Positions 40,777 through 56,361 of a stretch of DNA of 64,000 nucleotides are shown here, piece after piece (positions within the stretch are counted from its first letter, which is position 1; each line of letters starts with the position of its first letter). The notes beneath the pieces are model-generated. The model saw only the letters and a program-made list of their open reading frames with translations. It was not told where the DNA came from and searched no databases. The translations under genes and the position numbers were made by a program. This DNA is from a virus: IMG/VR virus record IMGVR_UViG_3300025880_000014, positions 2,458 through 66,457 of that record; one strand, 5' to 3'.

Positions 40777-41370
40777 TTATTTGTAATGTCCTCCTCCTAG
40801 CCATAAGACAAAAGATTTTCTAGTACCTTTAGTTACGGGTTTAACTGAGTGTAACATATAACTTGGAAATAAGACTACATTTCCTTTTCCTCGAGGAGCG
40901 GTCAATACATTTGTATCTAGAGATTCTCCACCTAGCCAAAAGCATAAATCTCCACCTTCGTATTCATTACTATCAGACAATTGAACAGTAATAGATACCT
41001 TTCTAATAGATAAATTCTTATCTCCAACGTCTTGGTGCCAATCATATTTACCAAACTCAGACGCTTCATATTCAGTATATTGAATTAGCTCAGGAGCAGT
41101 ATGTAAATCGAAATTCCATAGGGTTTGATTTGCTTCAGTTGCCATGGCAATTAATTTTTCATAAAGCCATGCCCATTCTTCGCTCTGTGGAATCCATTTA
41201 ATATTAGATTTTCTGTCTTCTGTTTCTCCACCTTGAGTTTCTGCTCGAACGTATTCAATATTAGCAACCCCTTGCTCAATACTTCTTAATTCTTCAGCTG
41301 AAAATCCTTGATCAAACCAGTAATACTGTTGAGCTTCGTTTTGTTTTGGTTCAAATGTAAAATTATTCAT
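40777..41370 (-). CDS. 2OG-Fe(II) dioxygenase (prolyl hydroxylase / PKHD-like)
   Basis: YDWHQD...RKVSITVQLS...YEGGDL...LFPSYMLHSVKPVTKGTRKS, giving HxD...H...R. Confidence 0.9.
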   Translation of the reverse strand: MNNFTFEPKQNEAQQYYWFDQGFSAEELRSIEQGVANIEYVRAETQGGETEDRKSNIKWIPQSEEWAWLYEKLIAMATEANQTLWNFDLHTAPELIQYTEYEASEFGKYDWHQDVGDKNLSIRKVSITVQLSDSNEYEGGDLCFWLGGESLDTNVLTAPRGKGNVVLFPSYMLHSVKPVTKGTRKSFVLWLGGGHYK

Positions 41371-43216
41371 CTTCTCTATATGTTATATTTACTGCACCTT
41401 CTTCTTCACCAAATCTAGATCTTGCGTTAATAGGCCATTGTGGATCCTCTTCATATGCCCAATCATGCTGACCTAATTCTTCAAATCTTTCTTTAATTCT
41501 TTCATTATATCTTGAAGCGATTGTACGTGTTCTTCTTTGTATATCTGCTCTAGATAGATCATGTGTATTTCTATGACCTTGATTACTATATAAAAATTGA
41601 ATATAGCTTAACTTAGGTATCTTACACATGATAGTGTTTAAGAATGTTCTAATAATTAATTCGTAATCATCAACAACTGTTAAACTTCTATTATGTCCTC
41701 CGATTGCAAAGTATGTAGATCTTCTCCACGCTCTAATGTGATTAGGAACTCCAACAATGTGTCTAATTGTTTTTGGATTAATATTCTGTTGATTTGCAGG
41801 ACTTAGCATTCTACCTTGATATTCTTCTTCTCTATAATTACCATATCCTAATGCAAAACCAGGACCGTATTTTTGATTTTCCCATTGTTCATTTACTTCT
41901 GCAGTATCACCGTAAAAGAATCCGCATTCAGGGTGTTTTTGTGCGGCGTTATGTAAATCCTGTGCGCATGTTACTGCGAGTAAATCATCGTGATCTAGTT
42001 CTGCGATAATATATCCTCTAGCCATTGCGTTTGCTCTCCACTTGACCTCTCCGATAATCCCACCTGATTTTTCTCTAAAATCGTATAGCTTAACTCTAGG
42101 GTCATTTGCTGCAATCTGCTCGGCAATCTTAAGTGTTTTACCACCATCAGTTGAATCGTTCATTAATACCCATTCCCAGTTGTCATACGTTTGAGCAGCG
42201 ACTGAGTTATATGTGTTTATTAACTTTTCACCTGTGTTATATATTGGAGTTGTAAAAGATATCATGCTATGATCGTCCATATTTGTCGGATCTAACATTG
42301 CATTTTCAGAAACATTATACGCAATATCTCCTACATTTTTTAAATCATTATCATTATCTATATTGATCCATTTTCTCCTAAATTGAAGAGGTAGTTTTGA
42401 TAGATATCTAAAATCAGAAGAACTCTTTCCTCGAGTTACTATTGCATCTGGTTTAAAACTGGATATTTTTTTTCTAATATCAGTATCATCCTTTGCATAT
42501 TTAACCTCTAAGTTGTCATCCTCGTAATCAAGTATTTTAGTAGTTTTCATTACTGGTTCTCCAGGTCCTATATATAAAATCCTAGGTAGTTTAGGTGTTG
42601 ACACTTTTTCTAATTCATTGTAATATGAAAGAATTTCATTAATCCAAACGAATGTATCTGGGTGGTTCTTATATACTTCTTCGATAAAGTAACCATCTGC
42701 TGCATAATCTGCTGTGAAACCATATTTTTCAAAAAGCTCTGATCTAAATAATATTTGAGCTATGTCTGTTTTTCTGAAACCAGTAGATTCTGGAGTAGAT
42801 TCTCTGTATTTTAATCCGGTAAAATCTTTACCATCAACTGCTTGTCCAACCATTATGATTTTCTTTTCAGAATTTACAGGTAGCATTACGAAATCCTCGA
42901 CTCTTTGATAAAATTCAGGATGCATTATATTGTCGTCATCTAATAAATAAAACCACGAATGATCTAAGCTCCTTATTAGACTGGTTGTTTCAGGGTACAT
43001 CATCCCGCCATGTTGTCCTTTAATAAAATGTATTGTTGTATTTGACTGATCTAAAATAGATAATAGATTCGCATCAATATCCTTCAGAGCACCTGTGTCA
43101 AACATAATGTGCCAATGTACCTCTACTCCTCTTGTTTTAGAAGTATCGAATACAGTTGGTTGTATTTTTAATAAATTAGATGTTCTAGTACATCTTGTGA
43201 TTACGTTAATTTTCAT
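41363..43216 (-). CDS. Tandem GT-A (GT2-like) glycosyltransferase, two catalytic domains
   Basis: N-domain FYLLDDDN and ADYAADG; C-domain SFTTPIYNT, WEWVLMNDST, ELDHDD, VVDDYEL. Confidence 0.85.
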   Translation of the reverse strand: MKINVITRCTRTSNLLKIQPTVFDTSKTRGVEVHWHIMFDTGALKDIDANLLSILDQSNTTIHFIKGQHGGMMYPETTSLIRSLDHSWFYLLDDDNIMHPEFYQRVEDFVMLPVNSEKKIIMVGQAVDGKDFTGLKYRESTPESTGFRKTDIAQILFRSELFEKYGFTADYAADGYFIEEVYKNHPDTFVWINEILSYYNELEKVSTPKLPRILYIGPGEPVMKTTKILDYEDDNLEVKYAKDDTDIRKKISSFKPDAIVTRGKSSSDFRYLSKLPLQFRRKWINIDNDNDLKNVGDIAYNVSENAMLDPTNMDDHSMISFTTPIYNTGEKLINTYNSVAAQTYDNWEWVLMNDSTDGGKTLKIAEQIAANDPRVKLYDFREKSGGIIGEVKWRANAMARGYIIAELDHDDLLAVTCAQDLHNAAQKHPECGFFYGDTAEVNEQWENQKYGPGFALGYGNYREEEYQGRMLSPANQQNINPKTIRHIVGVPNHIRAWRRSTYFAIGGHNRSLTVVDDYELIIRTFLNTIMCKIPKLSYIQFLYSNQGHRNTHDLSRADIQRRTRTIASRYNERIKERFEELGQHDWAYEEDPQWPINARSRFGEEEGAVNITYREDE

Positions 43217-43227
43217 TTAATGTGGTT

Positions 43228-44160
43228 TTATTGTTCAATGTCAAAAAAGAACATGTGGAAAAATCTTGCATTATCAATTGCATCTCCAAAGTATTCAGTT
43301 GCTGCGTGTAATTGCGATGAGTTAAATATTACTAGTCTATTATATACGTTTCCAATATCATCAATCTTTTCAAATTGAGTTCCATCGTAGAAGTTCATTT
43401 CTTTATTAGTACCTCTGAATGTATCTACGTATTCATCTCCCATTCTAGATTCTTGACCCGGAAACGATGAAATTCCTGTAACTTTACTTCGATACATTGC
43501 AGTTCCTGTTTGTGGAGGTGCGTCTGGGGTTAAGTAAACCATTGCAGCATACATTTGACTATCTACATGGTATACTATAGGTTGATCTGCTGTACAGAAT
43601 TGAAATACACCATTAGCGTATCCACCATTGTTCCAGTTTGTTATTTTTCTACCTAATACTTCTTCAAGTTTTTCCTTAGTGCCATCTATAATATATCTAG
43701 ATTGAGATCTTTGTCCTTTGTGATATTTAGACGGTAAAAACTCTAAATTATTCATAGCATATTCTCTGACTAAATCAGGATCTGCATAGAAATTATCAAC
43801 AACAATAACGTCTTTATCTGTTTTATTAAATCCAGATGAAGAAGCTGGCCATTTTGCTAAAGAAATAAGTTCAACTGGCGCTGCATTATTTAAACTAATC
43901 CATAGTTTTTTCGTAATATCTTCGTGTAGAATCATTATATTAAATCCTACATTTTCCGGAATTGTTCCTTTATAAAAAGAAAAAACATCTGGCCTTTTTT
44001 CCCATTCAATATTCAAGGATTTTCCATCTAATAGAACGTCAGTTACTATAGTATCTTTAGTTATTGAACCTACCCATCCTCTTGCGTACCAATATCCATC
44101 GGTGCCTTTTTTAATAGAATCAATGTTTAATTTTACATTGTTTAAATTAGTTTCGTGCAT
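43228..44160 (-). CDS. 2OG-Fe(II) dioxygenase-like protein (DUF6445-like) with an extra N-terminal domain
   Basis: VVDNFYADPD.VRE, YHVD...AAMVYLTP...GT, YNRLVIF...LHA, R.FHMFF. Confidence 0.75.
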   Translation of the reverse strand: MHETNLNNVKLNIDSIKKGTDGYWYARGWVGSITKDTIVTDVLLDGKSLNIEWEKRPDVFSFYKGTIPENVGFNIMILHEDITKKLWISLNNAAPVELISLAKWPASSSGFNKTDKDVIVVDNFYADPDLVREYAMNNLEFLPSKYHKGQRSQSRYIIDGTKEKLEEVLGRKITNWNNGGYANGVFQFCTADQPIVYHVDSQMYAAMVYLTPDAPPQTGTAMYRSKVTGISSFPGQESRMGDEYVDTFRGTNKEMNFYDGTQFEKIDDIGNVYNRLVIFNSSQLHAATEYFGDAIDNARFFHMFFFDIEQ

Positions 44161-44265: not shown

Positions 44266-46860
44266 TTATATTTGCCCTTTGAGGCCTCCACCAGCGCCTC
44301 CGGTTTGCGTAACTAATCCATTAACGAATGTGACATTGTGTCCCGTACTAAAGTAAATGGTTTCACTAATCCCACTAGTTGGTCCGTTAGTTCCTTGAGA
44401 TCCTCGAGGACCCTTTACTCCCGCAGGACCAAGTTGGCCCGTATTTCCAGTAAATCCTTTATAACCTTGTGCTCCATTGGTACCTTTAGCTCCTGGAGCT
44501 CCTTTAGCTCCTTGAGAACCATTATTACCCTTAAGACCCTGTGGCCCTCTTGGTCCGGTGCTACCATTTAGTCCTTTATAACCTGTTGGTCCTACTAGCC
44601 GTGCTCCTTGTGGTCCTCTATATCCAACTCCTAGACTACTACCAGTAGTTCCTTGGAATCCTCGAACTGTTCCAGTTGGTCCTTTATAGCCGGTAAGTCC
44701 TTTAAATCCTGTATAGCCTGTAATAGTAGATCCAGTGGTTCCTTTTAAACCCTGTGGCCCGACATATCCTTGAACTCCTTTTGGACTTGCTCCAGTATTA
44801 CCTTGTGCTCCTTGAGGTCCAGTATATCCTTTTGCTCCTCCTGGTTGTGATCCTTTAAGACCTTGATCTCCCTGAACACCAATAAATCCAATATACCCCT
44901 TAGGCATTGCTCCTTTAGCACCCTGATTTCCTTGGGCTCCTTGTGGTCCTCTATGTCCAGTTGGAGAATCTCCAATCGGTCCGGTGTTACCATTTAGTCC
45001 TTTATAACCTGTAACTCCTTTATATGAGGTTGGACGTACACCTTGAGTTCCCTGTGGTCCTCTTGGTCCAGTGCTTCCGGTTGGTTGTGCTCCTTTATCT
45101 CCTTGAGTACCTTGTGCTCCTTGTGGTCCTCTTGATCCTCCGGGCTGTGCTCCTTTATTTCCTTGGAATCCTCTTGGTCCTGTTACTCCAATAAATCCTT
45201 TTGGCTGAGCTCCTGTATATCCTTGAACTCCTTGAGCTCCTTGAACTCCTCTAAATCCTGTTGGATTTGCTCCTTGGAAACCTCTTTCTCCATTAATTCC
45301 TGTGTAACCGGTTGCTCCTGTTGGTGAAGATCCTTGAACTCCTCTATAACCAGTTGCTCCAATAAATCCAATATACCCCTTTGGCATTGCTCCTTTTAAT
45401 CCTTGGAAACCTCTTGGTCCTGTTGGTCCAGTTGGCGAAGTTGGTCTAGCTCCTTGGAAACCTCTTGGTCCCGTATTTCCAGGATCACCGATAATTGCGT
45501 CATATGCAGGTCCTGTTGGTCCTGTATATCCTGTTGGTCCGTTTGGTCCTATGTGTCCTTTTGGACTTGCTCCGATATTACCCTGTGCTCCTTGAGATCC
45601 TTTAAGACCAGTATATCCCTTTGGACTTGGTCCTGTATATCCTGTTGGTCCGTTTACTCCTTTATCTCCTTGGAATCCTCTATTAGTACTTCCTTGAGAT
45701 CCTCTAATACCCTGTACTCCTTGAAACCCTCTTGGTCCTGTTGGTGAATTACCAATAGCTCCTTGAAAACCTCTTGGTCCAGGATCTCCTGTTTGAGCAG
45801 CTGGCGTACTTCCAGTATTTCCTTGAAAACCTCTTTCTCCGTTTAATCCTTTGTCTCCAACTGGATTTGCTCCTTGTGCTCCTTTAAAACCAGGATAACC
45901 TTCAGCTCCTTGAAAACCTTTTGGACTATTTCCAACGTCTCCTTGAAAACCTCTATCTCCGTTTAATCCTTTGTCTCCAACTGGATTTGCTCCTTGTGCT
46001 CCTTTAAAACCAGGATGACCTTCAGCTCCTTGGAAACCTTTTGGTGAATCACCAACATTTCCTTGAAAACCTCTGTCTCCAGTTTGTCCTACTTGTGCAG
46101 TTTGAGTTGAACCCTGTGCTCCTTTTAGTCCGGTAGCACCCTGTGAACCTTTATGTCCTTTTTGATTTGTACCTGCAGAACCTTGAAATCCTACATGTCC
46201 AACAAAACCAGTTGCTCCACCTGGATTTAAACCCGTAGTACCTTGATCTCCTTGAAAACCTCTGAAACCAGTTGCTCCTGTTAATTGATCTCCCTGAAAC
46301 CCTCTTGGTCCATCAGGTCCAATATCACCAACGTAAGCTGTAATTACATTACCCTGTGATCCAGTTGAACCTTGATCTCCTTTTATTCCTTTAAGACCAT
46401 TAGTTATTTTACCTGCATCTCCATCTGTTCCTTGATTTCCTCTAAAACCTTCTGGTCCTTCTGGTGAATCTCCAATTGTTCCTTGGAATCCTCTAAAACC
46501 TTGATCAGCAGTACCTTTATTTCCTTGAAAACCTCGATCTCCTTGAAAACCTATATTACCTTCATAACCTTGATGTCCTTGTGGACTGTCTCCTTGAAAA
46601 CCTCTGAAACCAGTATCTCCAACAGGTTCTAAACCTGCAGATCCTTGAACTCCTTTATCTCCTTGAAAACCTCTATCTCCTTGAAAACCTTGAGCTCCAA
46701 CAATACCTTGAAAACCTTGATCTCCTTGAAAACCTTGAGCTCCAACAATACCTTGGTCTCCCTGGTCTCCTTTCAATTCAGGATAGTTATTAGCATCAAA
46801 GTTACCAGTATGTAAGGGAGTTTCTCCCCCTACAAGTGATCCTGTATTTAATTTTGCCAT
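44266..46860 (-). CDS. Collagen-like fibre protein, chain A (864 aa), with periodic interruptions
   Basis: Gly-X-Y from aa 31 to about 828, with 34 one-residue-short interruptions. Confidence 0.9.
45841..46080. repeat. 120-bp tandem duplication in collagen A (40 aa = 14 triplet equivalents)
   Basis: 45841-45960 vs 45961-46080: 110/120 identical by manual comparison. Confidence 0.9.
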
Positions 46861-46900
46861 GTTATTTTTATTCTTTTTTTATATATAATTAACTTATTGG

Positions 46901-49558
46901 TTATTGGATAAATCCGTTTGAAACAATATAGCCTGTTCCATTATCGTCTGTGAAAAATCCGTTAAAACCATTACCTATAGATCCACTTCCATGATAACCT
47001 TGTGGTCCTCTTGGTCCTGTTGGTCCATATCCGACTGGTCCCATACTTCCAGTTAATCCTCTTGCTCCTGCTGTTCCAGCTCCTCCGCCAGATCCTTGGA
47101 ATCCTCTTGGTCCTGTTGATCCATTTGCTCCTTGATATCCGACTGATCCTACTATCTGATTTCCTTGTGCTCCTGTTGCACCCTGGGCTCCTGGTATTCC
47201 TGTATATCCTTGAGGTCCTCTTGCTCCTTGAACTCCGTTTGGTCCTTTATATCCTGTTGGTCCATTATTACCTTGTGGTCCTCTTGACCCCGTTGGTCCT
47301 GTTGAACCTGTAGCTCCCTGTGGTCCCGTATTTCCTTGTGATCCCTGTGGACCAGTTGGTCCTTTATAACCTCCACCTCCGGCGGATCCGGATCCTCCTT
47401 GATATCCTCTTGGTCCTGTATTACCAGTGGCTCCTTGTGCACCTTGGAATCCTGATATTCCTTTGTTTCCAGTGGCTCCTTGTGTTCCTCTATCTCCCAC
47501 TGCCGAAGTAGTTCCAGTAAGTCCTTTATTACCAATAAATCCAGTATAACCTTTTGCTCCAGTTACTCCTTGTGCTCCAGTTGATCCCTGTGCTCCTTGA
47601 TTTCCTTTAGCTCCAGTATTTCCCTGTGCTCCTGTTAATCCAGTTGCTCCTTTTAATCCAGTATATCCAGTTACTCCCTGTGCTCCTTGATTTCCTTGTG
47701 ATCCGTTAACTCCTGTTTTACCAATAAATCCAGTATAACCTGTTGCTCCAGTTCCTCCTTGTGAACCGTTAACTCCAGGATAACCAGTTGGTCCCGTTGG
47801 TCCTTGATTTCCAACGGCTCCAGTTCCTCCAGTTGCTCCTTTAGCTCCAACAAGTCCAGTATATCCTTTTGGTCCGGTTGCACCCTGTGCTCCTGTAAAT
47901 CCAGTAGGTCCTGTTGAACCTTTAGCTCCCTGTGCTCCTTGTGCTCCTTTTACATTAGTAAATCCTTGAGGTCCCGTTGGCCCTTGAGGACCGGTGTTAC
48001 CAACCGCAGATGTTGTTCCTGTTAATCCTTTAAAACCAGTAGCTCCTTTTGCTCCTTGTGCTCCTTGTACTCCTGTTAATCCTTTAAAACCAGTAGCTCC
48101 TTTTGCTCCTTGTGCTCCTTGTGCTCCTTTAGGTCTTTGAGATCCCTGAGGTCCCTGAGCTCCTTTTGCTCCTTGAGAACCTTTATTACCAGTAGCTCCT
48201 TTAGCTCCTATTGCTCCCTGGAATCCTCTTTCACCAAGTGAACCTTGATTTCCGATAACACCCTGGGGTCCAGTTGATCCCTGTGCTCCTTGATTTCCTT
48301 TTACTCCTTCAAATCCTGTTGAACCAACAATTCCTATATAACCAGTATCTCCTTTGAAACCGGTAAATCCTGTAGATCCTTTAGCACCCTGTGCTCCAGT
48401 AACTCCTTGGAATCCCTTTGGTCCCGTAACTCCTTGTGGTCCTCTTCCACCAGCTCCGCCAGTTAATCCTTGATAACCAGTTGCTCCAATATTACCTTTA
48501 GCTCCTTGATTTCCTTTAGCTCCAGTATCTCCTTTAAGTCCGTTAGATCCTGTAATACCAACATACCCAGTAGAACCTGTAGCTCCTGTTGCTCCTTGAT
48601 AACCAGTTGCTCCAATATTACCTTTAGCTCCTTGATTTCCTTTAGCTCCAGTATCTCCTTTAAGTCCGTTAGATCCTGTAATACCAACATACCCAGTAGA
48701 ACCTGTAGCTCCAGTATCTCCTTGATAACCTGTTGCTCCAGTAGATCCTTGCGCTCCTTGAGATCCAGTACTTCCTTTATCTCCTAAAAGACCTTGAAAT
48801 CCTCTTTCACCAGGATCTCCTGGTAAAGAATCCGAAGCAGTTGCTCCTTTAAATCCTTTTTGTCCTGTTGAACCTTTAGCTCCCTGAGATCCTTTAACTC
48901 CATTAGTTCCAGGTAATCCTTCAAAACCGGTAGATCCTTTAGATCCCTGTGCTCCATCAACTCCGGTAAATCCTTTTAAACCGGTTGAACCTTGTGATCC
49001 TTTATTTCCTTTAACTGATGTTGCTCCTTTTGCTCCTTGGAATCCTCTTTCTCCAGTATCTCCTTGTGTACCTTGTGTACCTTTAATACCGACAGAACCT
49101 TGACTTCCTTGAAAACCTCTTTCTCCGTTAATTCCTTTTACACCCTGTGCTCCAGTAAAACCTTGGAATCCTTGAAGTCCAATAGAACCTTGATCGCCGA
49201 CTTGTCCTTGATAACCATTAGAACCATTAGGACCTAATATACCTGTTATTCCTTTTTCTCCTCTAATTCCAGTAGCTCCGGTAAAACCTTGAAGACCAGT
49301 AGATCCTTGATTACCTTTACTACCAGTAGATCCTTGATCACCTTGACTACCTTGATAACCCCCAGTTCCAACGAAACCTTGATTACCTGTATCACCTTGA
49401 TGACCGACACTACCGTCGGATCCAACAGATCCTTGGGATCCTTGAGATCCCAATTCACCGTTCGGTCCAATAAGCTGAGGAAAATTCGTGCTATTAAGGT
49501 TACCACTGTGTAATACGAGATTACCGTCTAACGTAGTACCTAAGATAAATTTTGCCAT
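46901..49558 (-). CDS. Collagen-like fibre protein, chain B (885 aa)
   Basis: Gly-X-Y from aa 31 to about 859 (277 triplet equivalents). Confidence 0.9.
48017..48124. repeat. 54-bp tandem duplication in collagen B ([15 protein letters not shown])
   Basis: Identical run starting at 48017 and 48071. Confidence 0.8.
48471..48722. repeat. 126-bp tandem duplication in collagen B (14 triplets)
   Basis: 48471-48596 vs 48597-48722: 123/126 identical. Confidence 0.9.
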
Positions 49559-49593
49559 GTTATTATTTTTATATTTTTATTTGTTTTATATTG

Positions 49594-52467
49594 TTATCCA
49601 ATATTTACACCGTTTTGGATAGTACGTACTCCACGCGTATGAAATATTTGACCGCTAAATCCTCCGGTTGCATTATTACCTTGATAACCCTGTGGTCCTC
49701 TTGCTCCGGTACCAGATCCACCCTGGACTCCTTGATAACCTTGTGGTCCTCTTGCAGGTGCAGGCTGTCCTCCAGCGCCTTGATAACCTTGAGGTCCTGA
49801 TGTTGCGGAAGCTCCTTTTGCTCCTTGTGTTCCTTGTGCTCCTGTTGCTCCTTTTAAACCTTGAGGTCCTCTTGGTCCTGCACCACCATTAAGTCCTACA
49901 TAACCTTGTGCTCCACGTGCTCCAACGTTTCCGTTTGCACCTTGTACTCCTTGAGGTCCTGTATATCCTTGAACTCCTTGAGCTCCCTGGGTTCCTTGAG
50001 CTCCTCTTACAGTACCTGCAGGTCCAATAAAACCTTTAAGTCCGGTTGAACCTTGTGGTCCTCTTACTCCCTGTGGCCCTGTTGGTCCTGTATATCCTTT
50101 TGGTCCTGTTGCTCCTTGGAATCCTCTGTGACCTGGCGCACCACTATAACCTTGTGGTCCAGTTAGTCCTTTATAACCCTGTACTCCTTGAGTTCCTCTT
50201 GCAGCCGCAGTTCCCTGTGGTCCAGTTATTCCTTTATCACCAGTAGCTCCTTGTGGTCCTCTTGGTCCAGTAGATCCTTTAAAACCTGTATCTCCTTTTG
50301 CTCCTTGTGCTCCTCTAATTCCTTGTGGTCCAAGATCTCCAGTAGGTCCAGTTGCTCCTTTAGGTCCGATATATCCGATATATCCTTTTGGTCCAGTTGC
50401 TCCTTGAGGTCCTTTAATTCCTTTTGCTCCAGTTGCTCCTTGATTACCCTTTGGTCCAGTTATTCCCTGAACTCCTTTTGCTCCTTGAACACCAATTGTT
50501 CCCTGAGCTCCTTGAGGTCCAGTATTTCCTTGAGGTCCTCTAATAGTTCCAGTACTTCCGGTTGCTCCTTGAAAACCTTTATTACCAGTAGCTCCGGTTG
50601 CTCCTTGATTACCTTTAATTCCTTGGAATCCTCTGTCTCCAGTTGCTGCAGTAGATCCTTTAAGACCTTGTGCTCCTCTAACTCCTTGATTTCCTTGGAA
50701 TCCTCTTGGTGCAGCAGTTCCCTGTGCTCCAGTATTTCCTTGAAATCCAATCTTTCCAGTTGGTCCTAAATCACCAATTGCTCCGGTATTTCCTTGAACT
50801 CCAATAAATCCTTTATCTCCTTTAATTGCACTTGGTGCGATATATCCAGTATCTCCCTGGAATCCTCTGTCTCCAGTTGCTCCTTGATTACCCTGTGCTC
50901 CTGTTACTCCAGTATATCCTTTTGCACCAGTAGTACCTTTAGCTCCTTGGAATCCTCTTGGTCCGCTAGATCCTTGATGTCCTCTTTCACCAGCATCTCC
51001 TTGAACTCCTTTTGAACCTTGTGGTCCAACTGCTCCAACAGATCCCTGTGCTCCTATTATTCCAGTGTTTCCTTGAACTCCAGTTGCTCCAGTTGCTCCT
51101 TTATCTCCAGTTGCTCCTTGAGGTCCTGTATAACCTTTTGCTCCTTGTGCTCCAAGAGGTCCTGTTAAACCTTTAGCTCCTTGATCTCCTTTGAAACCTT
51201 GATCTCCTTTAAGACCAACATTTCCAATAACACCTTGGTTTCCTTGAAAACCTCTTGGACCAGTGTTACCCTGTGCTCCAGTTGATCCTTTTAAACCTTT
51301 AGCTCCTTGATCTCCTTTGAAACCTTGATCTCCTTTAAGACCAACATTTCCAATAACACCTTGGTTTCCTTGAAAACCTCTTGGACCAGTGTTACCCTGT
51401 GCTCCAGTTGATCCTTTTAAACCTTTAGCTCCCTGTGATCCTTTAAAACCTCTTTCACCAATGATACCATCGGCTCCAGTAGATCCTTGATAACCTGTTG
51501 CTCCAGTAGATCCTTGTGTTCCTATTACTTTATTAATACCAGCGTCTCCTTGAGTTCCTTGATTTCCTTGAAAACCTCTGTCTCCTACGGGTCCGTTAAT
51601 ACCTGTTGTTCCTTTAATTCCTTTGTCTCCTTGGAATCCTCTGGCTCCATTTGAACCATTATTTCCTTTTGCTCCTTGAGGTCCTGTAAATCCAACGTCT
51701 CCTTGTGCTCCTCTGTTTCCATCAAGTCCTTTATAACCTGTTGCTCCAGTTGAACCTTTAAAACCTTGATCTCCGATTACTCCATCAGAACCTTGATCAC
51801 CTTTATAACCGGTAACCCCTTGATTTCCCTGAACTCCAATAGGTCCAGTAACTCCTTTGTTTCCGATAGATCCTTGGAATCCTCTGGCACCGTCTACGCC
51901 TGTTAAACCCTTAGTACCTTGAGTACCTTTAGTTCCTTGGTTTCCTTGGAATCCTCTTTCACCTTGATTTCCAACAATACCTTTAGATCCTTGAAATCCT
52001 CTTTCACCTTTAGCCCCAGTAGTACCTGAAATACCAATATCTCCTACTAATCCTTTACTACCACGTGATCCTTCACTACCAGTATCTCCTACTAATCCAG
52101 TATTTCCGAGAGAACCTTTATCTCCACGAAAACCTTCATCACCGGTATTTCCTTTTACTCCTTTTAAAGAAGAGAAATCACTAGGTGTAAAATTACCAGG
52201 TCTTAATATTAGATTGCCACCGATTGTTGAATCAGCCTTAAAGCTTCCGCCACCATCAAAAATACCACCCGCTATAATTGCGGAATCAGTACTCCTAATA
52301 GTTAACACATTCCCCGCAGGGAATGTGTTTAACTCTTCTAGGTAAGACGGCGTATAGACGATAGCTGAATCTTGGTCAATTCCTGCTCTGTTCGAGTTTT
52401 CATCGATCTGAGCCTGGAATTCTCCGGTAGATTGTACTAGTTTTATCGCTATTTTATTAAATGCCAT
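49594..52467 (-). CDS. Collagen-like fibre protein, chain C (957 aa) with a 102-aa N-terminal domain
   Basis: Gly-X-Y from aa 103 to about 932 (276 triplet equivalents). Confidence 0.9.
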   Translation of the reverse strand: MAFNKIAIKLVQSTGEFQAQIDENSNRAGIDQDSAIVYTPSYLEELNTFPAGNVLTIRSTDSAIIAGGIFDGGGSFKADSTIGGNLILRPGNFTPSDFSSLKGVKGNTGDEGFRGDKGSLGNTGLVGDTGSEGSRGSKGLVGDIGISGTTGAKGERGFQGSKGIVGNQGERGFQGNQGTKGTQGTKGLTGVDGARGFQGSIGNKGVTGPIGVQGNQGVTGYKGDQGSDGVIGDQGFKGSTGATGYKGLDGNRGAQGDVGFTGPQGAKGNNGSNGARGFQGDKGIKGTTGINGPVGDRGFQGNQGTQGDAGINKVIGTQGSTGATGYQGSTGADGIIGERGFKGSQGAKGLKGSTGAQGNTGPRGFQGNQGVIGNVGLKGDQGFKGDQGAKGLKGSTGAQGNTGPRGFQGNQGVIGNVGLKGDQGFKGDQGAKGLTGPLGAQGAKGYTGPQGATGDKGATGATGVQGNTGIIGAQGSVGAVGPQGSKGVQGDAGERGHQGSSGPRGFQGAKGTTGAKGYTGVTGAQGNQGATGDRGFQGDTGYIAPSAIKGDKGFIGVQGNTGAIGDLGPTGKIGFQGNTGAQGTAAPRGFQGNQGVRGAQGLKGSTAATGDRGFQGIKGNQGATGATGNKGFQGATGSTGTIRGPQGNTGPQGAQGTIGVQGAKGVQGITGPKGNQGATGAKGIKGPQGATGPKGYIGYIGPKGATGPTGDLGPQGIRGAQGAKGDTGFKGSTGPRGPQGATGDKGITGPQGTAAARGTQGVQGYKGLTGPQGYSGAPGHRGFQGATGPKGYTGPTGPQGVRGPQGSTGLKGFIGPAGTVRGAQGTQGAQGVQGYTGPQGVQGANGNVGARGAQGYVGLNGGAGPRGPQGLKGATGAQGTQGAKGASATSGPQGYQGAGGQPAPARGPQGYQGVQGGSGTGARGPQGYQGNNATGGFSGQIFHTRGVRTIQNGVNIG
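51165..51432. repeat. 126-bp perfect tandem duplication in collagen C (14 triplets)
   Basis: 51165-51290 vs 51291-51416: 126/126 identical, plus a 16-bp third partial copy. Confidence 0.9.
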
Positions 52468-52521: not shown

Positions 52522-55500
52522 TTAATCGAATGAGAATGTAATGTCTCCATTTGCATCTCTTTCAATTCTTGCCGTTGGGTTACCGTTAGCATCTTCGAAA
52601 TAAATAGCTTTATCATTGGCGATTGTTATTGAATCTCCATCAAATGCTCCAGTTTCTCCTTGGAATCCTTGATCTCCTTTAGCTCCAGTTAAACCCTGTG
52701 CTCCAGTATCTCCTTTGAAACCTTGATCTCCTTTGAATCCTTGGTCTCCTTTAGCTCCAGTTAAACCCTGTGCTCCAGTATCTCCTTTGAAACCTTGATC
52801 TCCTTTGAATCCTTGGTCTCCTTTAATACCTTGAATACCATCGTCTCCTTTAGTACCTTGAACTCCTTGAATACCTTGAATACCATCGTCTCCTTTGAAT
52901 CCTTGATCTCCTTTTAAACCAGTATCTCCTTTGAAACCTTGATCTCCTTTAAGACCTTGAATACCTTGAATACCATCGTCTCCTTTAGTACCCTGAACTC
53001 CAATAACTCCTTGTTCCCCTTGGAAACCTTGAATACCTTGCTCTCCAGTATCTCCTTTGAAACCTTGATCTCCTTTAAGACCTTGAATACCTTGAATACC
53101 ATCGTCTCCTTTAGTACCTTGAACTCCTTGAATACCTTGAATACCATCGTCTCCTTTGAATCCTTGATCTCCTTTTAAACCAGTATCTCCTTTGAAACCT
53201 TGATCTCCTTTTAAACCAGTATCTCCTTTGAAACCTTGATCTCCTTTAAGACCTTGAATACCTTGAATACCATCGTCTCCTTTAGTACCCTGAACTCCAA
53301 TAACTCCTTGTTCCCCTTGGAAACCTTGAATACCTTGCTCTCCAGTATCTCCTTTGAAACCTTGATCTCCTTTGAAACCTTGATCTCCTTTAGCTCCTAA
53401 AGTACCTGATTCTCCTTGGAAACCTTGATCTCCTTTAAGACCTTGAATACCTTGAATACCATCGTCTCCTTTAAGACCTGTATCTCCTTTAAGACCAGTT
53501 TCTCCTTGGAATCCTTGATCTCCTTTAGCTCCAGTATCTCCCTGGAAACCTTGAATACCTTGTTCTCCTTGATCTCCTTTAAGACCATCAATACCTTGGA
53601 AACCTTGATCTCCTTTAGCTCCAGTATCTCCTTGGAAACCTTGATCTCCTTGGAAACCTTGGAAACCTTGATCACCCTGTGCTCCAATTTTCATTGGTGT
53701 GAAAGATACAATAATTTGACCATTTGCTGATGGGATGTTCGCTGCGTACGCGTCGTTAGTCATGTGTTCCGCAGAAGAAGTACCACCATCGTAATTACTG
53801 TTTGAACCACCAACTCTTACCATGTCTACTCTAAGATCTCCTCTTCCGGCAGAACCTAAAATAATGGAAGCGTTTGATGCTTCATATAAATGATATTTAC
53901 TAGAGTCTCCATTCTTAGAAACTTTTACGTAAATTCTATCGTAACCATCAGATACCATATTTGTAAATAAAGAATTCATGTGGTTGATATCTTGCAATCC
54001 GTTTGCGATATCTGAGAACCACCATTCTTGAGAACCTCCATAAATAAATGAAGATGCTTCAGTATGTCCTAATTGATTAACGTTTGTGTATTTATTATCT
54101 GAGAAGGTAATACCATCATAAACAACTGATAAACCACCAGCGTTACCTACAGTACCTTGGAATCCTTGATCTCCTTGATCTCCTTTAAGACCTTGGAAAC
54201 CTTGATCTCCTTGGAAACCTTGGAAACCTTGATCTCCAGTTTCTCCTTGAATACCTTGTTCTCCTTGATCTCCTTTAAGACCAGTATCTCCTTGGAAACC
54301 TTGATCACCTTGGAAACCTTGATCACCTTGGAAACCTTGGAAACCTTGATCTCCTTTAGCTCCTAATGTACCATCAACTCCTTGGAAACCTTGATCTCCT
54401 TTAGCTCCAGTATCTCCTTGGAATCCTTGATCTCCTTTAGTACCCTGAACTCCGATAACTCCTTGTTCTCCAGTATCTCCTTTGAAACCTTGAATACCTT
54501 GCTCTCCAGTATCTCCTTTGAAACCTTGATCTCCTTTAAGACCTTGAATACCTTGCTCTCCTGTATCTCCTTTAGTACCCTGAACTCCAATAACTCCTTG
54601 TTCCCCTTGGAAACCTTGAATACCTTGCTCTCCTGTATCTCCTTTAAGACCAGTTTCTCCTTGGATACCTTGGATACCTTGTTCTCCAGTATCTCCTTTA
54701 AAACCTTGATCTCCTTTAAGACCTTGAATACCTTGAATACCATCGTCTCCTTTAAGACCTGTATCTCCTTTAAGACCAGTTTCTCCTTGGATACCTTGGA
54801 TACCTTGTTCTCCAGTATCTCCTTTAAAACCTTGATCTCCTTTAAGACCTGTATCTCCTTTAAGACCAGTTTCTCCTTGGATACCTTGCTCTCCTGTATC
54901 TCCTTTAAAACCTTGATCTCCTTTAAGACCTTGAATACCTTGTTCTCCAGTGTCTCCTTTGAATCCTTGATCTCCTTTAAGACCAGTTTCTCCTTGGATA
55001 CCTTGGATACCTTGTTCTCCAGTATCTCCTTTAAGACCAGTTTCTCCTTGGATACCTTGAATACCTTGTTCTCCAGTATCTCCTTTAGTACCCTGAACTC
55101 CAATAACTCCTTGTTCCCCTTGGAAACCTTGAATACCTTGCTCTCCTGTATCTCCTTTAAGACCTGTATCTCCTTGGAATCCTTGATCTCCTTTAAGACC
55201 AGTTTCTCCTTGGATACCTTGGATACCTTGTTCTCCAGTATCTCCTTTGAAACCTTGATCTCCTTTAAGACCTTGAATACCTTGTTCTCCAGTATCTCCT
55301 TTAAAACCTTGATCTCCTTTAAGACCTTGAATACCTTGCTCTCCTGTATCTCCTTTAAGACCTGTATCTCCTTGGAATCCTTGATCTCCTTTAAGACCAG
55401 TTTCTCCTTGGATACCTTGTTCTCCAGTATCTCCTTTAAGACCAGTTTCTCCTTGGATACCTTGAATACCTTGTTCTCCAGTATCTCCTTTAGTACCTAC

Positions 55501-56361
55501 AGTACCTTGAACTCCGATAACTCCTTGTTCCCCTTGGAAACCTTGAATACCTTGTTCTCCAGTGTCTCCTTTGAATCCTTGATCTCCTTTAAGACCAGTT
55601 TCTCCTTGGATACCTTGGATACCTTGTTCTCCAGTATCTCCTTTAAGACCAGTTTCTCCTTGGATACCTTGAATACCTTGTTCTCCAGTATCTCCTTTAA
55701 AACCTTGATCTCCTTTAAGACCTTGAATACCTTGTTCCCCAGTATCTCCTTTAGTACCTACAGTACCTTGAACTCCGATAACTCCTTGTTCCCCTTGGAA
55801 ACCTTGAATACCTTGATCTCCTTTAAGACCAGTTTCTCCTTGAATACCTTGTTCTCCTTGATCTCCTTGGATACCTTGGTCTCCTTGGATACCTTGATCT
55901 CCTTTTAATCCTTGATCTCCTTTAATACCTTGAATACCATCGTCTCCTTTGAAACCTTGATCTCCTTGAAGACCTTGATCTCCTGTATCTCCTTTAGTAC
56001 CTACAGTACCTTGAACTCCGATAACTCCTTGTTCCCCTTGGAAACCTTGAATACCTTGATCTCCTTTAAGACCAGTTTCTCCTTGAATACCTTGTTCTCC
56101 TTGATCTCCTTTAAGACCAGTTTCTCCTTTAAGACCAGTTTCTCCTTTGAAACCTTGATCTCCTTTAATACCTTGAATACCTTGTTCACCGGTATCTCCT
56201 TTAAAACCTTGATCTCCTTGAAGACCTTGATCTCCTTGAAAACCTTGAACCCCATCAATACCCTGATCTCCTTGGAAACCTTGATCTCCTTGTGTACCTT
56301 GATATCCGGATCCTTGATCTCCCTGAGGACCTGCGGTAGAAATATATGCTGAATATGCCAT
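52522..56361 (-). CDS. Collagen-like protein D (1279 aa): two Gly-X-Y tracts (about aa 11-741 and 893-1240) around a ~150-aa globular insert
   Basis: Built from GDQ/GFQ/GLK/GDT/GEQ/GIQ modules; almost Pro-free. Confidence 0.9.
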   Translation of the reverse strand: MAYSAYISTAGPQGDQGSGYQGTQGDQGFQGDQGIDGVQGFQGDQGLQGDQGFKGDTGEQGIQGIKGDQGFKGETGLKGETGLKGDQGEQGIQGETGLKGDQGIQGFQGEQGVIGVQGTVGTKGDTGDQGLQGDQGFKGDDGIQGIKGDQGLKGDQGIQGDQGIQGDQGEQGIQGETGLKGDQGIQGFQGEQGVIGVQGTVGTKGDTGEQGIQGLKGDQGFKGDTGEQGIQGIQGETGLKGDTGEQGIQGIQGETGLKGDQGFKGDTGEQGIQGFQGEQGVIGVQGTVGTKGDTGEQGIQGIQGETGLKGDTGEQGIQGETGLKGDQGFQGDTGLKGDTGEQGIQGLKGDQGFKGDTGEQGIQGLKGDQGFKGDTGEQGIQGIQGETGLKGDQGFQGDTGLKGDTGEQGIQGFQGEQGVIGVQGTKGDTGEQGIQGIQGETGLKGDTGEQGIQGIQGETGLKGDQGFKGDTGEQGIQGLKGDQGFKGDTGEQGIQGETGLKGDTGLKGDQGFKGDTGEQGIQGIQGETGLKGDTGLKGDDGIQGIQGLKGDQGFKGDTGEQGIQGIQGETGLKGDTGEQGIQGFQGEQGVIGVQGTKGDTGEQGIQGLKGDQGFKGDTGEQGIQGFKGDTGEQGVIGVQGTKGDQGFQGDTGAKGDQGFQGVDGTLGAKGDQGFQGFQGDQGFQGDQGFQGDTGLKGDQGEQGIQGETGDQGFQGFQGDQGFQGLKGDQGDQGFQGTVGNAGGLSVVYDGITFSDNKYTNVNQLGHTEASSFIYGGSQEWWFSDIANGLQDINHMNSLFTNMVSDGYDRIYVKVSKNGDSSKYHLYEASNASIILGSAGRGDLRVDMVRVGGSNSNYDGGTSSAEHMTNDAYAANIPSANGQIIVSFTPMKIGAQGDQGFQGFQGDQGFQGDTGAKGDQGFQGIDGLKGDQGEQGIQGFQGDTGAKGDQGFQGETGLKGDTGLKGDDGIQGIQGLKGDQGFQGESGTLGAKGDQGFKGDQGFKGDTGEQGIQGFQGEQGVIGVQGTKGDDGIQGIQGLKGDQGFKGDTGLKGDQGFKGDTGLKGDQGFKGDDGIQGIQGVQGTKGDDGIQGIQGLKGDQGFKGDTGEQGIQGFQGEQGVIGVQGTKGDDGIQGIQGLKGDQGFKGDTGLKGDQGFKGDDGIQGIQGVQGTKGDDGIQGIKGDQGFKGDQGFKGDTGAQGLTGAKGDQGFKGDQGFKGDTGAQGLTGAKGDQGFQGETGAFDGDSITIANDKAIYFEDANGNPTARIERDANGDITFSFD
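52650..53685. repeat. Low-complexity repeats (second collagen tract of D)
   Basis: Repeated ccttgaataccatcgtctcc and aaaccttgatctcc blocks. Confidence 0.85.
54150..56330. repeat. Low-complexity minisatellite of 9-bp-multiple modules (first collagen tract of D)
   Basis: Recurrent near-identical blocks such as ccttgatctcctttaagacc and ccttgttctccagtatctcc. Confidence 0.85.

What the first reader, a model, noticed from the sequence alone, without database searches (positions are those of the whole stretch)
44377..46770. Chain A drops one residue every 7 triplets: a possible programmed curved or coiled fibre
Seen in sequence: from triplet 35 to 245, chain A is interrupted at every multiple of 7 (31 consecutive lattice points). 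The usual unit is 5 triplets + G-x-x-P-[K/T] = 20 aa (GDSPK, GANPV, GASPK, GAMPK, GAQPT), sometimes an 8-residue form; the last (GTVR, 245) is 4 residues. All Gly replacements in B and those in C up to triplet 218 sit at 7n+1 or 7n+2, as do B's Gly-rich soft spots (113-114, 183, 191, 231-233). Exceptions are C's GTIR at 180 and the last ~25 triplets. Established knowledge: in the 7/2 triple-helix model one chain returns to the same azimuth every 7 triplets. Inference: a chain shortened once per turn would bend the rod repeatedly in one plane, giving an arc, loop or spring, or would display the Pro kinks along one face.
Basis: partly seen in the sequence, partly recalled or inferred. Interest (0 to 1): 0.8.

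Follow-up and report, generated by a model that had tools for sequence, protein, structure and literature searches.

The report
Phage collagen with periodic glycine skips
In a marine giant phage, one of three neighbouring collagen-like chains lacks a glycine at every seventh triplet, and the three chains fit together as one mixed triple helix in which this 6-nm lattice of nodes holds nearly every other irregularity; this collagen design has not been described, and its effect on fibre shape is still unmeasured.

Summary
Chain A (44266-46860, minus strand) keeps a strict 20-residue lattice over 640 residues: six Gly-X-Y plus a two-residue break, usually P-K or P-T. That gives 31 of 31 lattice points. 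The rows are diverged, so this is not a recent DNA repeat.

New evidence shows that A, B and C form one heterotrimer:
- Cross-chain Lys/Arg-Asp/Glu pairing peaks only for B to C (+1), C to A (+1) and A to B (+2). That is the signature of B leading, C middle, A trailing. It appears in six clusters.
- The signal exists only if each A break counts as one triplet level, so 20 residues of A run beside 21 of B and C.
- B and C breaks coincide with A nodes, and B and C composition is periodic in phase with them.
- Thirteen related marine contigs keep the lattice, and chain lengths co-vary from 162 to 281 triplet levels.

The proposed curvature is untested. Seven triplets is the true repeat of a 7/2 helix, but Pro-poor helices lean towards 10/3, where the kinks would cancel.

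The scan has earlier notes of candidate heterotrimeric collagens and periodic-break collagens on other DNA. I did not check those notes.

The parts
44266..46860 (-). Gene for chain A (864 aa), the trailing chain that carries the periodic one-residue skips
   Evidence: ORF and translation; Pfam Collagen PF01391, E 2.9e-67; register from charge pairs
44659..46578 (-). Strict 20-residue lattice of chain A, residues 95-734, 32 rows. Consensus row: G-[YFH]-x-G-[FY]-x-G-[PA]-[QR]-G-F-Q-G-x-x-G-[AS]-[SQN]-P-[KT]
46459..46464 (-). First node of the unbroken 7-slot series (P-E, residues 133-134, slot 36)
44662..44664 (-). Last lattice point (the extra R of GTVR, residue 733, slot 246); here the break is +1 instead of -1
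46771..46860 (-). 30-residue leader of chain A ([30 protein letters not shown]). It is paralogous in A, B and C, so triplet numbering starts at homologous points in the three chains
44269..44376 (-). Short C-terminal non-collagen end of A (..[10 protein letters not shown]..); B and C end in similar motifs. Candidate trimerisation or distal knob
   Evidence: complex prediction gave no verdict
46901..49558 (-). Gene for chain B (885 aa), the leading chain. Its Gly replacements lie at slots 51, 71-72, 149, 163, 169 and 219. At node phases 1-2 it has small residues and no aromatics
49594..52467 (-). Gene for chain C (957 aa), the middle chain. Its Gly replacements lie at slots 71, 148-149, 162, 169 and 218. 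Pro at X is enriched at node phase 1, and K/R at Y is absent at phase 7
45490..45504 (-). Example of a node broken in all three chains (slots 148-149): A = YDAII. The partners are B = RPK at 48128-48136 and C = APSAIK at 50821-50838
45817..46085 (-). 120-bp tandem duplication in A (two 20-aa rows = 14 slots). The matching 126-bp duplications lie in B (48467-48761) and C (51146-51451). All three occupy slots 85-98 and 99-112
   Evidence: L003/L074 lack it in all three genes
40777..44160 (-). Context only: DUF6445 protein (43228-44160), GT2 glycosyltransferase (41363-43216) and 2OG-Fe(II) oxygenase (40777-41370) directly downstream of A. They are candidate collagen-modifying enzymes
   Evidence: Pfam hits; any role at the nodes is untested

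Best explanation
SHOWN. B (leading), C (middle) and A (trailing) build one ABC collagen triple helix of about 280 triplet levels, roughly 0.24 um long. In chain A the glycine of every seventh triplet is missing (...G-x-[S/N/Q]-P-[K/T]-G...). Register is nevertheless kept, so at each node five residues of A are drawn taut over six residue levels, and 20 residues of A run beside 21 of B and C. The nodes are built sites: C tends to have Pro at X there, and B has small residues and no aromatics. Nearly all other irregularities of B and C sit at nodes. These are Gly replacements and, in relatives, some inserted globular domains.

INFERRED. Seven triplets is one full turn of a chain in a 7/2-type triple helix, so the nodes would all lie on one side of the rod. 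Each node is asymmetric, with one chain short. Small kinks or twist defects would therefore add up in phase, as phased A-tracts do in DNA. The fibre would then have an intrinsic arc or superhelical shape instead of being a straight rod.

My odds: heterotrimer and register 0.9; taut-node reading 0.8; period set by helix geometry 0.5; intrinsic curvature or coiling about 0.3.
For: 1. Lattice: 31/31 nodes.

2. Register: for Y-position K/R against X-position D/E across chains, the window gives C to A at +1 = 24 (null 6.6 +/- 2.6), B to C at +1 = 17 (5.2 +/- 2.4) and A to B at +2 = 9 (2.7 +/- 1.6). Each ranks 1 of 121 shifts. Same-chain counts at +1 are not enriched (A 1, B 4, C 8). The same trio appears in L001, L003, L006, L008 and L082, and permuted in L027. 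This is the published i/i+2, i/i+2, i/i+5 rule for leading, middle and trailing chains (PMC11923368).

3. Taut node: the signal vanishes if a 2-residue break is counted as 0 levels (best 13 at an arbitrary shift). Under slot counting the pairs run from slot 1 to 221.

4. B/C breaks coincide with A nodes: window 11/12 (p 3e-5), L003 13/14, L076 12/15, L082 9/11, L008 5/6. In L077-79 one 6-slot unit shifts A's phase, and the B/C breaks follow it.

5. Periodic composition in the unbroken chains: C Pro at X at phase 1 is 10/25 against 17/174 (p 3.5e-4; L082 1.6e-4). B aromatics at phases 1-2 are 1/53 against 30/145 (L082 0/39 against 38/106). C K/R at Y at phase 7 is 0/29 against 52/170.

6. Lengths (C/B/A, in slots) match within a cluster and range widely between clusters: 279/280/281, 265/266/267, 267/263/265, 222/223/225, 193/188/188, 198/192/192, 166/165/162. 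A 14-slot duplication sits at the same slots in all three genes.

7. For the inferred step: the true repeat of 7/2 is 7 triplets or 6 nm (PMC3933592). In L027 the nodes are 14 slots apart, with one chain +1 and another -1 at the same level, which is wedge-like. Collagen breaks are known to bend helices: MBL GQG by 11-85 degrees, and the C1q kink from one extra residue (PMC9898670). One-chain breaks barely soften collagen IV (local persistence length 83 against 105 nm; bioRxiv 10.1101/2020.09.27.315929), so flexibility alone is a poor reason for them. In-phase kinks of 3-10 degrees at 31 nodes would give arcs of radius 115-34 nm.
Against: - No structure, image or simulation was available, so the curvature rests on geometry alone.
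- The chains are imino-poor (Pro 4-7.5%, no G-P-P). Such helices tend to a 10/3-like twist (PMC3933592). Nodes would then be about 108 degrees apart and the rod would stay straight.
- A node may itself change the local twist, so exact commensurability is not assured.
- The L077-79 lineage tolerates one 6-slot unit, so global phase coherence is not indispensable.
- From memory, the crystal structure of a homotrimeric peptide with a one-residue deletion (Bella et al. 2006) was straight.
- The period could be an inherited module size, frozen by the need to keep three genes matched.
- Contig L075 has the 14-slot duplication in B and C but not in A.
- Complex prediction on the C-terminal ends gave no verdict.
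Confidence: 0.35

Rival explanations
1. Straight segmented rod. The heterotrimer and the node lattice are real, but the nodes are distributed around the axis (10/3-like twist, about 108 degrees per node), so their kinks cancel. Their role is local. They are the designated weak points where Gly replacements and domain insertions can be housed. They also lock the register and disfavour A-containing homotrimers, because A3 would be broken in all three chains every 18 residues.
For: Imino-poor composition together with the known trend to 10/3 (PMC3933592). Geometry shows cancellation at -108 degrees per node. B/C irregularities, and some insertions, sit at nodes. A 6-slot phase slip is tolerated in L077-79.
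Against: It gives no reason for a strict period, or for the period being exactly the 7/2 true repeat; irregular spacing would serve as well, as in collagen IV. B3 and C3 homotrimers are not excluded by this device. The register is already specified by the charge pairs.
Confidence: 0.3
2. Frozen module history. The 7-slot period is only the size of an ancestral 60/63-bp unit that was amplified long ago. Since then any indel must be matched in three genes, so the lattice persists without a structural meaning of its own.
For: Changes in length come as whole units in all three genes (14 slots). Homotrimer-type collagens of related phages (D-type, with a C-terminal chaperone domain) vary freely in triplet number: 78/85/87 and 250/260/281.
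Against: The rows have diverged to 17% identity, yet the node motif (Pro 21/32) and the phase-locked composition of B and C are kept in clusters whose neighbouring gene is only 55-72% identical. When a node is lost, a full triplet replaces it (L006 slot 85, L076 slot 218). Both points indicate selection on the nodes.
Confidence: 0.15
3. Periodic modification or docking sites. The exposed P-K/P-T dipeptide at each node is a site for hydroxylation and glycosylation by the adjacent oxygenases and glycosyltransferase, or for a decorating protein, presented every 6 nm.
For: A DUF6445 protein, a GT2 glycosyltransferase and a 2OG-Fe(II) oxygenase lie directly downstream of A. K or T occupies the last node position in 20 of 32 rows, followed by Gly; X-Lys-Gly is the animal lysyl-hydroxylase context (my knowledge).
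Against: Thr and Lys at Y are abundant all along the three chains, so the nodes are not special in that respect. V, G, R, N and E also occur at that position.
Confidence: 0.12
4. Three separate homotrimeric fibres (A3, B3, C3) of equal length; A3 would be a chain of 18-residue helical segments with flexible breaks.
For: Known prokaryotic and phage collagen-like proteins are described as homotrimers (PMC8968730).
Against: Same-chain charge pairing is absent, while cross-chain pairing is rank 1 of 121 in the exact leading/middle/trailing pattern. B and C composition is periodic in phase with A's breaks although B and C are unbroken there. The matched duplication sits at the same slots in all three genes.
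Confidence: 0.04

Closest known systems
Complement C1q collagen stalk (A, B, C chains)
   Same: Three different chains from neighbouring genes form one triple helix. At one level the chains carry different irregularities (an extra residue in one chain), and the stalk kinks there (PMC9898670; chain details from my knowledge). The L027-type nodes (+1 / 0 / -1) resemble this closely.
   Different: C1q has one such site in about 80 residues. Here there are 31 sites on a strict 7-triplet lattice over about 190 nm, and the usual node is a Gly deletion in one chain only. There is no C1q head domain and no sequence relationship beyond Gly-X-Y.
Type IV collagen (interrupted heterotrimers)
   Same: Long heterotrimeric helix with some 20 breaks, partly matched between chains. 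Breaks affecting 1, 2 or 3 chains differ in mechanical effect.
   Different: Its breaks are irregularly spaced and of many lengths. No lattice, no single 'skipping' chain and no global curvature was seen. It is an animal matrix protein with NC1 chain selection.
MBL / collectin GQG interruption
   Same: A short break in Gly-X-Y produces a measurable bend of 11-85 degrees.
   Different: It is a homotrimer with a single site, and the break is present in all three chains.
Prokaryotic and phage collagen-like fibre proteins (Scl2, BclA, E. coli prophage EPclA-D, mycobacteriophage and cyanophage tail-fibre collagens)
   Same: Pfam Collagen repeats in a phage fibre gene, poor in Pro and rich in Thr and Gln.
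   Different: Those are described as homotrimers (PMC8968730). The 120 best database matches show no periodic breaks. The D-type collagens of related phages are unbroken and vary freely in length.
Phased A-tracts in DNA; skip residues and stutters in coiled coils (analogy of mechanism only)
   Same: A small local defect repeated at the helical repeat adds up to a global bend or a changed supercoil (my knowledge).
   Different: These are different polymers. For collagen no natural phased-defect system is known to me.

Membership tests
Collagen triple-helix repeat proteins (Pfam PF01391) | Long runs of Gly-X-Y that match the Collagen model above its cut-off | tested here: met
   A 222.7 bits, B 377.2, C 386.6 (cut-off 27.2); runs listed
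Heterotrimeric (ABC) collagens | Three distinct chains with collagen domains of matched length | tested here: met
   279/280/281 slots in the window. Lengths co-vary between 162 and 281 slots in nine clusters. One exception, L075.
Heterotrimeric (ABC) collagens | Interchain contacts that fit one chain order and register: K/R(Y) to D/E(X) at i+2, i+2, i+5 | tested here: met
   B to C +1, C to A +1, A to B +2, each rank 1/121; same-chain pairing is not enriched. Rule taken from PMC11923368.
Heterotrimeric (ABC) collagens | Non-collagen chain-selection or trimerisation domain shown to form the mixed trimer | tested here: inconclusive
   Paralogous 30-aa leaders and short C-terminal motifs exist. 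Complex prediction scored 0.30, under the mark of 0.34, so no verdict.
Heterotrimeric (ABC) collagens | Physical 1:1:1 assembly | not testable with these tools
   Needs co-expression or virion proteomics.
Interrupted collagens of the type IV kind | Short breaks of the Gly-X-Y repeat inside a continuing helix, register kept across them | tested here: met
   Breaks of 2 or 5 residues. Charge-pair register persists across at least 29 nodes only under one-slot counting.
Interrupted collagens of the type IV kind | Irregular spacing and variable length of breaks | tested here: not met
   Strict 7-slot period, 31/31 nodes. This is the point of difference.
7/2-symmetry triple helix (required by the curvature reading) | Chain returns to the same azimuth every 7 triplets (true repeat 6 nm) | not testable with these tools
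   The period matches (PMC3933592). The composition is imino-poor, which favours a 10/3-like twist.
Kinked defence-collagen stalks (C1q, MBL) | A measured bend at the break | not testable with these tools
   Only geometry was computed.

The most novel reading that the evidence does not exclude
The lattice is a curvature code. One chain of a natural ABC collagen is shortened once per supercoil turn so that some 31 small kinks add in phase. The 0.24-um phage fibre would then be an arc, hoop or spring of defined radius (tens of nm to about 100 nm) rather than a rod. Relatives would tune the shape by healing nodes (14-slot spacing), by shifting the phase (a 6-slot unit) or by pairing a -1 chain with a +1 chain. 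This would be the first natural example of programmed shape in a collagen triple helix, and a design rule for curved collagen materials.
Probability: 0.28. Interest if true: 0.9.

Novelty: new variant of a known kind. Interest (0 to 1): 0.72.

Why it matters
Collagen triple helices are treated as rods whose breaks are irregular soft spots, and prokaryotic and phage collagens are described as homotrimers (PMC8968730). This locus differs in four ways. It offers a natural ABC heterotrimer whose chain order can be read from the sequence. It has a strictly periodic defect in a single chain. The two other chains are adapted to that defect. And it comes with a set of natural variants: nodes healed, the phase shifted, +1/-1 nodes, and domains inserted at nodes.

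Together these make an open question directly testable: what a one-chain, one-residue deletion does to the geometry of a triple helix, and whether such defects can be phased to shape a fibre. The result would bear on models of collagen IV and C1q breaks, on the design of heterotrimeric and curved collagen materials, and on how giant marine phages build very long host-searching fibres.

Tried and rejected
- Megablast of the locus against GenBank phages gave no match.
- tblastn and the word-indexed protein search with chain A returned only generic collagen matches. I used these as background, not as relatives.
- The alignment of all leaders (A1) was too divergent for a scan.
- The B-leader scan added one locus, L072, which holds no collagen gene. 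The scan with C's N-terminal domain found only near-identical relatives.
- Complex prediction of the C-terminal ~100 residues of B, C and A scored 0.30, under the mark of 0.34. This is no verdict and is not evidence either way.
- I laid Logan contigs of four marine runs on the locus to look for variants with or without the duplications. The contigs break at the repeats, so nothing can be said about indel variants. The run search does show the sequence in marine metagenomes of about a dozen studies.
- Recent tandem amplification as the cause of the period is rejected.
- The loop-out reading, in which each 2-residue break costs no level and A slips a triplet, is rejected.
- Three homotrimers is rejected as unlikely.
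- I first recalled that imino-poor helices favour 7/2.
- I did not build an elastic-network or atomic model. Without reliable parameters it would not have been evidence.
Full report
WHAT IS THERE

The window is part of a 71.6-kb IMG/VR virus record that CheckV rates about 24% complete. All genes lie on the minus strand, at about 32% G+C. The baseplate wedge protein is closest to uncultured huge phages; Prevotella Lak megaphages and Tenacibaculum phages are also among the records hit. The phage is therefore probably a jumbo myovirus of marine Bacteroidota. The sequence recurs in marine metagenomes of about a dozen studies.

Four collagen-like genes lie in tandem:
- D, 52522-56361
- C, 49594-52467
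- B, 46901-49558
- A, 44266-46860

All four match Pfam Collagen. Downstream of A lie a DUF6445 protein, a GT2 glycosyltransferase and a 2OG-Fe(II) oxygenase.

Cut at its breaks, chain A reads 6 Gly-X-Y + 2 residues, over and over. In rows of 20 from residue 95 to 734:
- Gly is invariant at columns 7, 10 and 13 (32/32).
- Gly is nearly invariant at columns 4 and 16 (31/32), and present at column 1 in 26/32 rows.
- Column 19 is Pro in 21 rows, and column 20 is K or T in 20 rows.

No insertion or deletion leaves the lattice in 640 residues. The longer five-residue breaks are a two-residue break followed by a triplet whose Gly is replaced by Ala or Ser.

I counted each short break of n residues as round(n/3) triplet levels ('slots'). 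On that count A is broken at slots 36, 43 ... 246, which is 31 of 31 points at 7n+1. Four conserved N-terminal breaks lie at 17, 22, 31 and 36. B's and C's Gly replacements sit at 7n+1 or 7n+2 up to slot 219.

The period is not a young DNA repeat. TRF sees only short 60-bp arrays and one 120-bp duplication. The rows share 17% identity outside Gly. Among 120 unrelated collagen-like proteins, none has more than two equal spacings in a row.

THE THREE CHAINS FORM ONE HELIX, AND A IS ITS TRAILING CHAIN

In a triple helix, a Y-position Lys of the leading or middle chain pairs with an Asp or Glu two residues on in the next chain. The trailing chain pairs five residues on in the leading chain (PMC11923368). 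I counted K/R at Y in one chain against D/E at X in another for all shifts from -60 to +60 slots. The window gives:

| Pair | Shift | Count | Null |
|---|---|---|---|
| B to C | +1 | 17 | 5.2 +/- 2.4 |
| C to A | +1 | 24 | 6.6 +/- 2.6 |
| A to B | +2 | 9 | 2.7 +/- 1.6 |

Each is the top of 121 shifts, and the same-chain counts are at or below background. The same trio appears in L001, L003, L006, L008 and L082. It appears in part in L004, L076 and L079, and with a permuted gene order in L027.

The order is therefore B leading, C middle, A trailing. This test does not depend on the break positions.

A REALLY IS ONE RESIDUE SHORT PER SEVEN TRIPLETS

The C-to-A signal exists only if each two-residue break of A counts as one level. 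If it counts as none, so that A loops out and slips, no shift stands out (best 13, at shift -60). Under slot counting the pairs run from slot 1 to slot 221, and 13 of them lie beyond slot 70 against a null mean of 3.5. The five residues G-x-y-P-K of A therefore lie beside six residues of B and of C. This requires a nearly extended stretch of A; that step is inference from chain geometry.

THE NODES ARE BUILT SITES THAT ORGANISE THE ROD

B/C breaks coincide with an A break (same or next slot) far more often than the chance fraction of about 0.3:

| Cluster | Coincident breaks |
|---|---|
| Window | 11 of 12 (p 3e-5) |
| L003 | 13 of 14 |
| L076 | 12 of 15 |
| L082 | 9 of 11 |
| L008 | 5 of 6 |

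The misses are mostly single-residue insertions (R, Q, T, K) in C, which form a separate class.

Even where B and C are unbroken, their composition follows A's lattice:
- C has Pro at X at phase 1: 10/25 against 17/174, and 11/21 against 17/128 in L082.
- B lacks aromatics at phases 1-2: 1/53 against 30/145, and 0/39 against 38/106 in L082. Small residues are enriched there.
- C has no K/R at Y at phase 7: 0/29, 0/21 and 0/18 in three clusters.

In relatives, globular domains inserted into B (L006, L008) start at slot 85 = 7x12+1.

COMPARATIVE EVIDENCE

Scans with the DUF6445 neighbour and with A's leader gave 13 further contigs with an A/B/C or X/Y/Z cluster. These represent about nine distinct versions, whose neighbouring gene is 96% to 54% identical. 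Every A orthologue keeps the lattice.

Total lengths (C/B/A, in slots) match within a cluster and differ between clusters:

| Cluster | C / B / A |
|---|---|
| Window | 279 / 280 / 281 |
| L003 | 265 / 266 / 267 |
| L004 | 267 / 263 / 265 |
| L076 | 267 / 261 / 263 |
| L079 | 222 / 223 / 225 |
| L082 | 224 / 222 / 227 |
| L006 | 193 / 188 / 188 |
| L008 | 198 / 192 / 192 |
| L027 | 166 / 165 / 162 |

Further points:
- The window's 14-slot duplication occupies slots 85-98 and 99-112 in all three chains. L003 and L074 lack it in all three.
- When a node is lost, a whole triplet replaces it, giving a spacing of 14 (L006, L076, L077).
- In L077-79 one unit has 6 slots. The lattice continues in the new phase, and the homologous B/C breaks (aptatk, aat) sit in that new phase. 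B/C breaks therefore follow A's nodes, not an absolute count from the N-terminus.
- In L027 the nodes are 14 slots apart. One chain has 13 triplets + 4 residues, a second has 13 triplets + 2 at the same levels, and the third is unbroken. That is +1 / -1 / 0.
- By contrast, the D-type collagens of related phages carry a C-terminal chaperone-like domain and are presumably homotrimers. They have unbroken runs of 78 to 281 triplets that vary freely between near-identical phages.

One exception is unexplained. Contig L075 has the duplication in B and C but not in A, and the charge-pair peak moves to -13 after slot 98. This is either a collapsed repeat in the assembly or a genuine unmatched state. 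The offset is still a multiple of 7.

HOW IT MAY WORK

The following are shown: the heterotrimer, the register, the lattice, the taut node, and the adaptation of B and C. What the lattice does is inferred.

- Seven triplets or 6 nm is the true repeat of the 7/2 helix (PMC3933592).
- A node is asymmetric, and the L027 nodes are wedge-like.
- Collagen breaks are known to bend helices: MBL by 11-85 degrees, and C1q (PMC9898670).
- One-chain breaks hardly soften collagen IV (83 against 105 nm), so plain flexibility is a weak motive.
- Kinks of 3, 6 or 10 degrees at 31 in-phase nodes give arcs of radius 115, 57 or 34 nm.

Against it:
- The chains hold 4-7.5% Pro and no G-P-P.
- Imino-poor helices tend to a 10/3-like twist. 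Nodes would then follow each other at about -108 degrees and the rod would remain straight.
- The node may also alter the local twist, and one lineage tolerates a phase slip.

I therefore put about 0.3 on an intrinsically curved or coiled fibre and about 0.3 on a straight segmented rod whose nodes serve as register locks and housings for defects. Smaller odds go to a frozen module size or to periodic modification sites.

COMPARISON AND NOVELTY

The closest known systems are C1q and type IV collagen. C1q is an ABC heterotrimer with chain-specific irregularities at one level and a kink. Type IV collagen is a heterotrimer with many irregular breaks. Neither has a lattice, a single skipping chain, or partner chains tuned to it.

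Prokaryotic and phage collagen-like proteins are described as homotrimers (PMC8968730). I found no paper that describes a periodic one-chain Gly deletion.

Earlier notes of this scan report candidate heterotrimeric collagens in other genomes, a '7/6/5' triad like L027, and homotrimer-type collagens with periodic breaks. One of those has a 29-residue unit, which would be ten slots minus one. These are unchecked leads.

I class the finding as a new variant of a known kind.

Noticed in passing
L006:8947-9507, L004:9258-9887 and the end of the A orthologue in L076: Some A orthologues carry a C-terminal extension of about 165-190 aa that starts with Cys (L006) and ends in ..THN. It gives weak, sub-threshold Pfam hits to intein/Hint domains (E 0.002-0.1). 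It may be an autoprocessing or ligating end that the window's own chain A lacks.
   Followed up: partly
L006:5707-6222, L008:6430-6879, L008:4745-5257: Globular domains of 150-170 aa are inserted into chain B (after 84 triplets, at a lattice slot) or chain C of relatives. The L008 B insert has a weak, sub-threshold hit to carbohydrate-binding module CBM_4_9 (E 8e-4). They may be beads on the fibre that bind host glycans.
   Followed up: partly
window 44377-52161 (collagen domains of A, B, C): The motif R-G-F-[QK] recurs 17 times in A, 5 in B and 13 in C, about one per 7-slot row across the trimer. In A it sits mostly in the middle of the unit (columns 9-12). Its meaning is unknown; a cation-pi clamp, a chaperone site and a receptor site are all possible.
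   Followed up: partly
L075:2464-10570: In this metagenome contig B and C carry the 14-slot duplication but A does not (A 262 slots against 279 and 278). The charge-pair register shifts by 14 after slot 98. This is either a collapsed repeat in the assembly or a real unmatched intermediate.
   Followed up: partly
window 49594-52467 (chain C: GTIR, residue 643; GTVR, residue 821); also chain A residue 733: A second class of break exists: single extra residues (mostly Arg) after a triplet (+1). These do not sit on A's lattice (slots 181 and 240 of C), and they recur in orthologues (R, V, Q, T, K).
   Followed up: no
window 46459-46622 (chain A residues 80-134): The N-terminal part of A has a conserved pattern of breaks at slots 17, 22, 31 and 36. 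These form two pairs 14 slots apart and offset by 5. The pattern is kept in all orthologues except L008, whose first 42 triplets are unbroken.
   Followed up: partly
window 52522-56361; L011-L061 (single giant collagen genes): Collagen D and the giant collagens of related phages (up to 1989 aa) have unbroken runs of up to 281 triplets with almost no Pro and an embedded globular bead. In the relatives there is also a C-terminal intramolecular-chaperone-like end (..DARLKDN..). Their triplet numbers differ between near-identical phages.
   Followed up: partly
window 44266-52467: Near-identical sequence is present in marine metagenome runs of about a dozen studies from 2014-2025, so this phage lineage is widespread and persistent.
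   Followed up: partly
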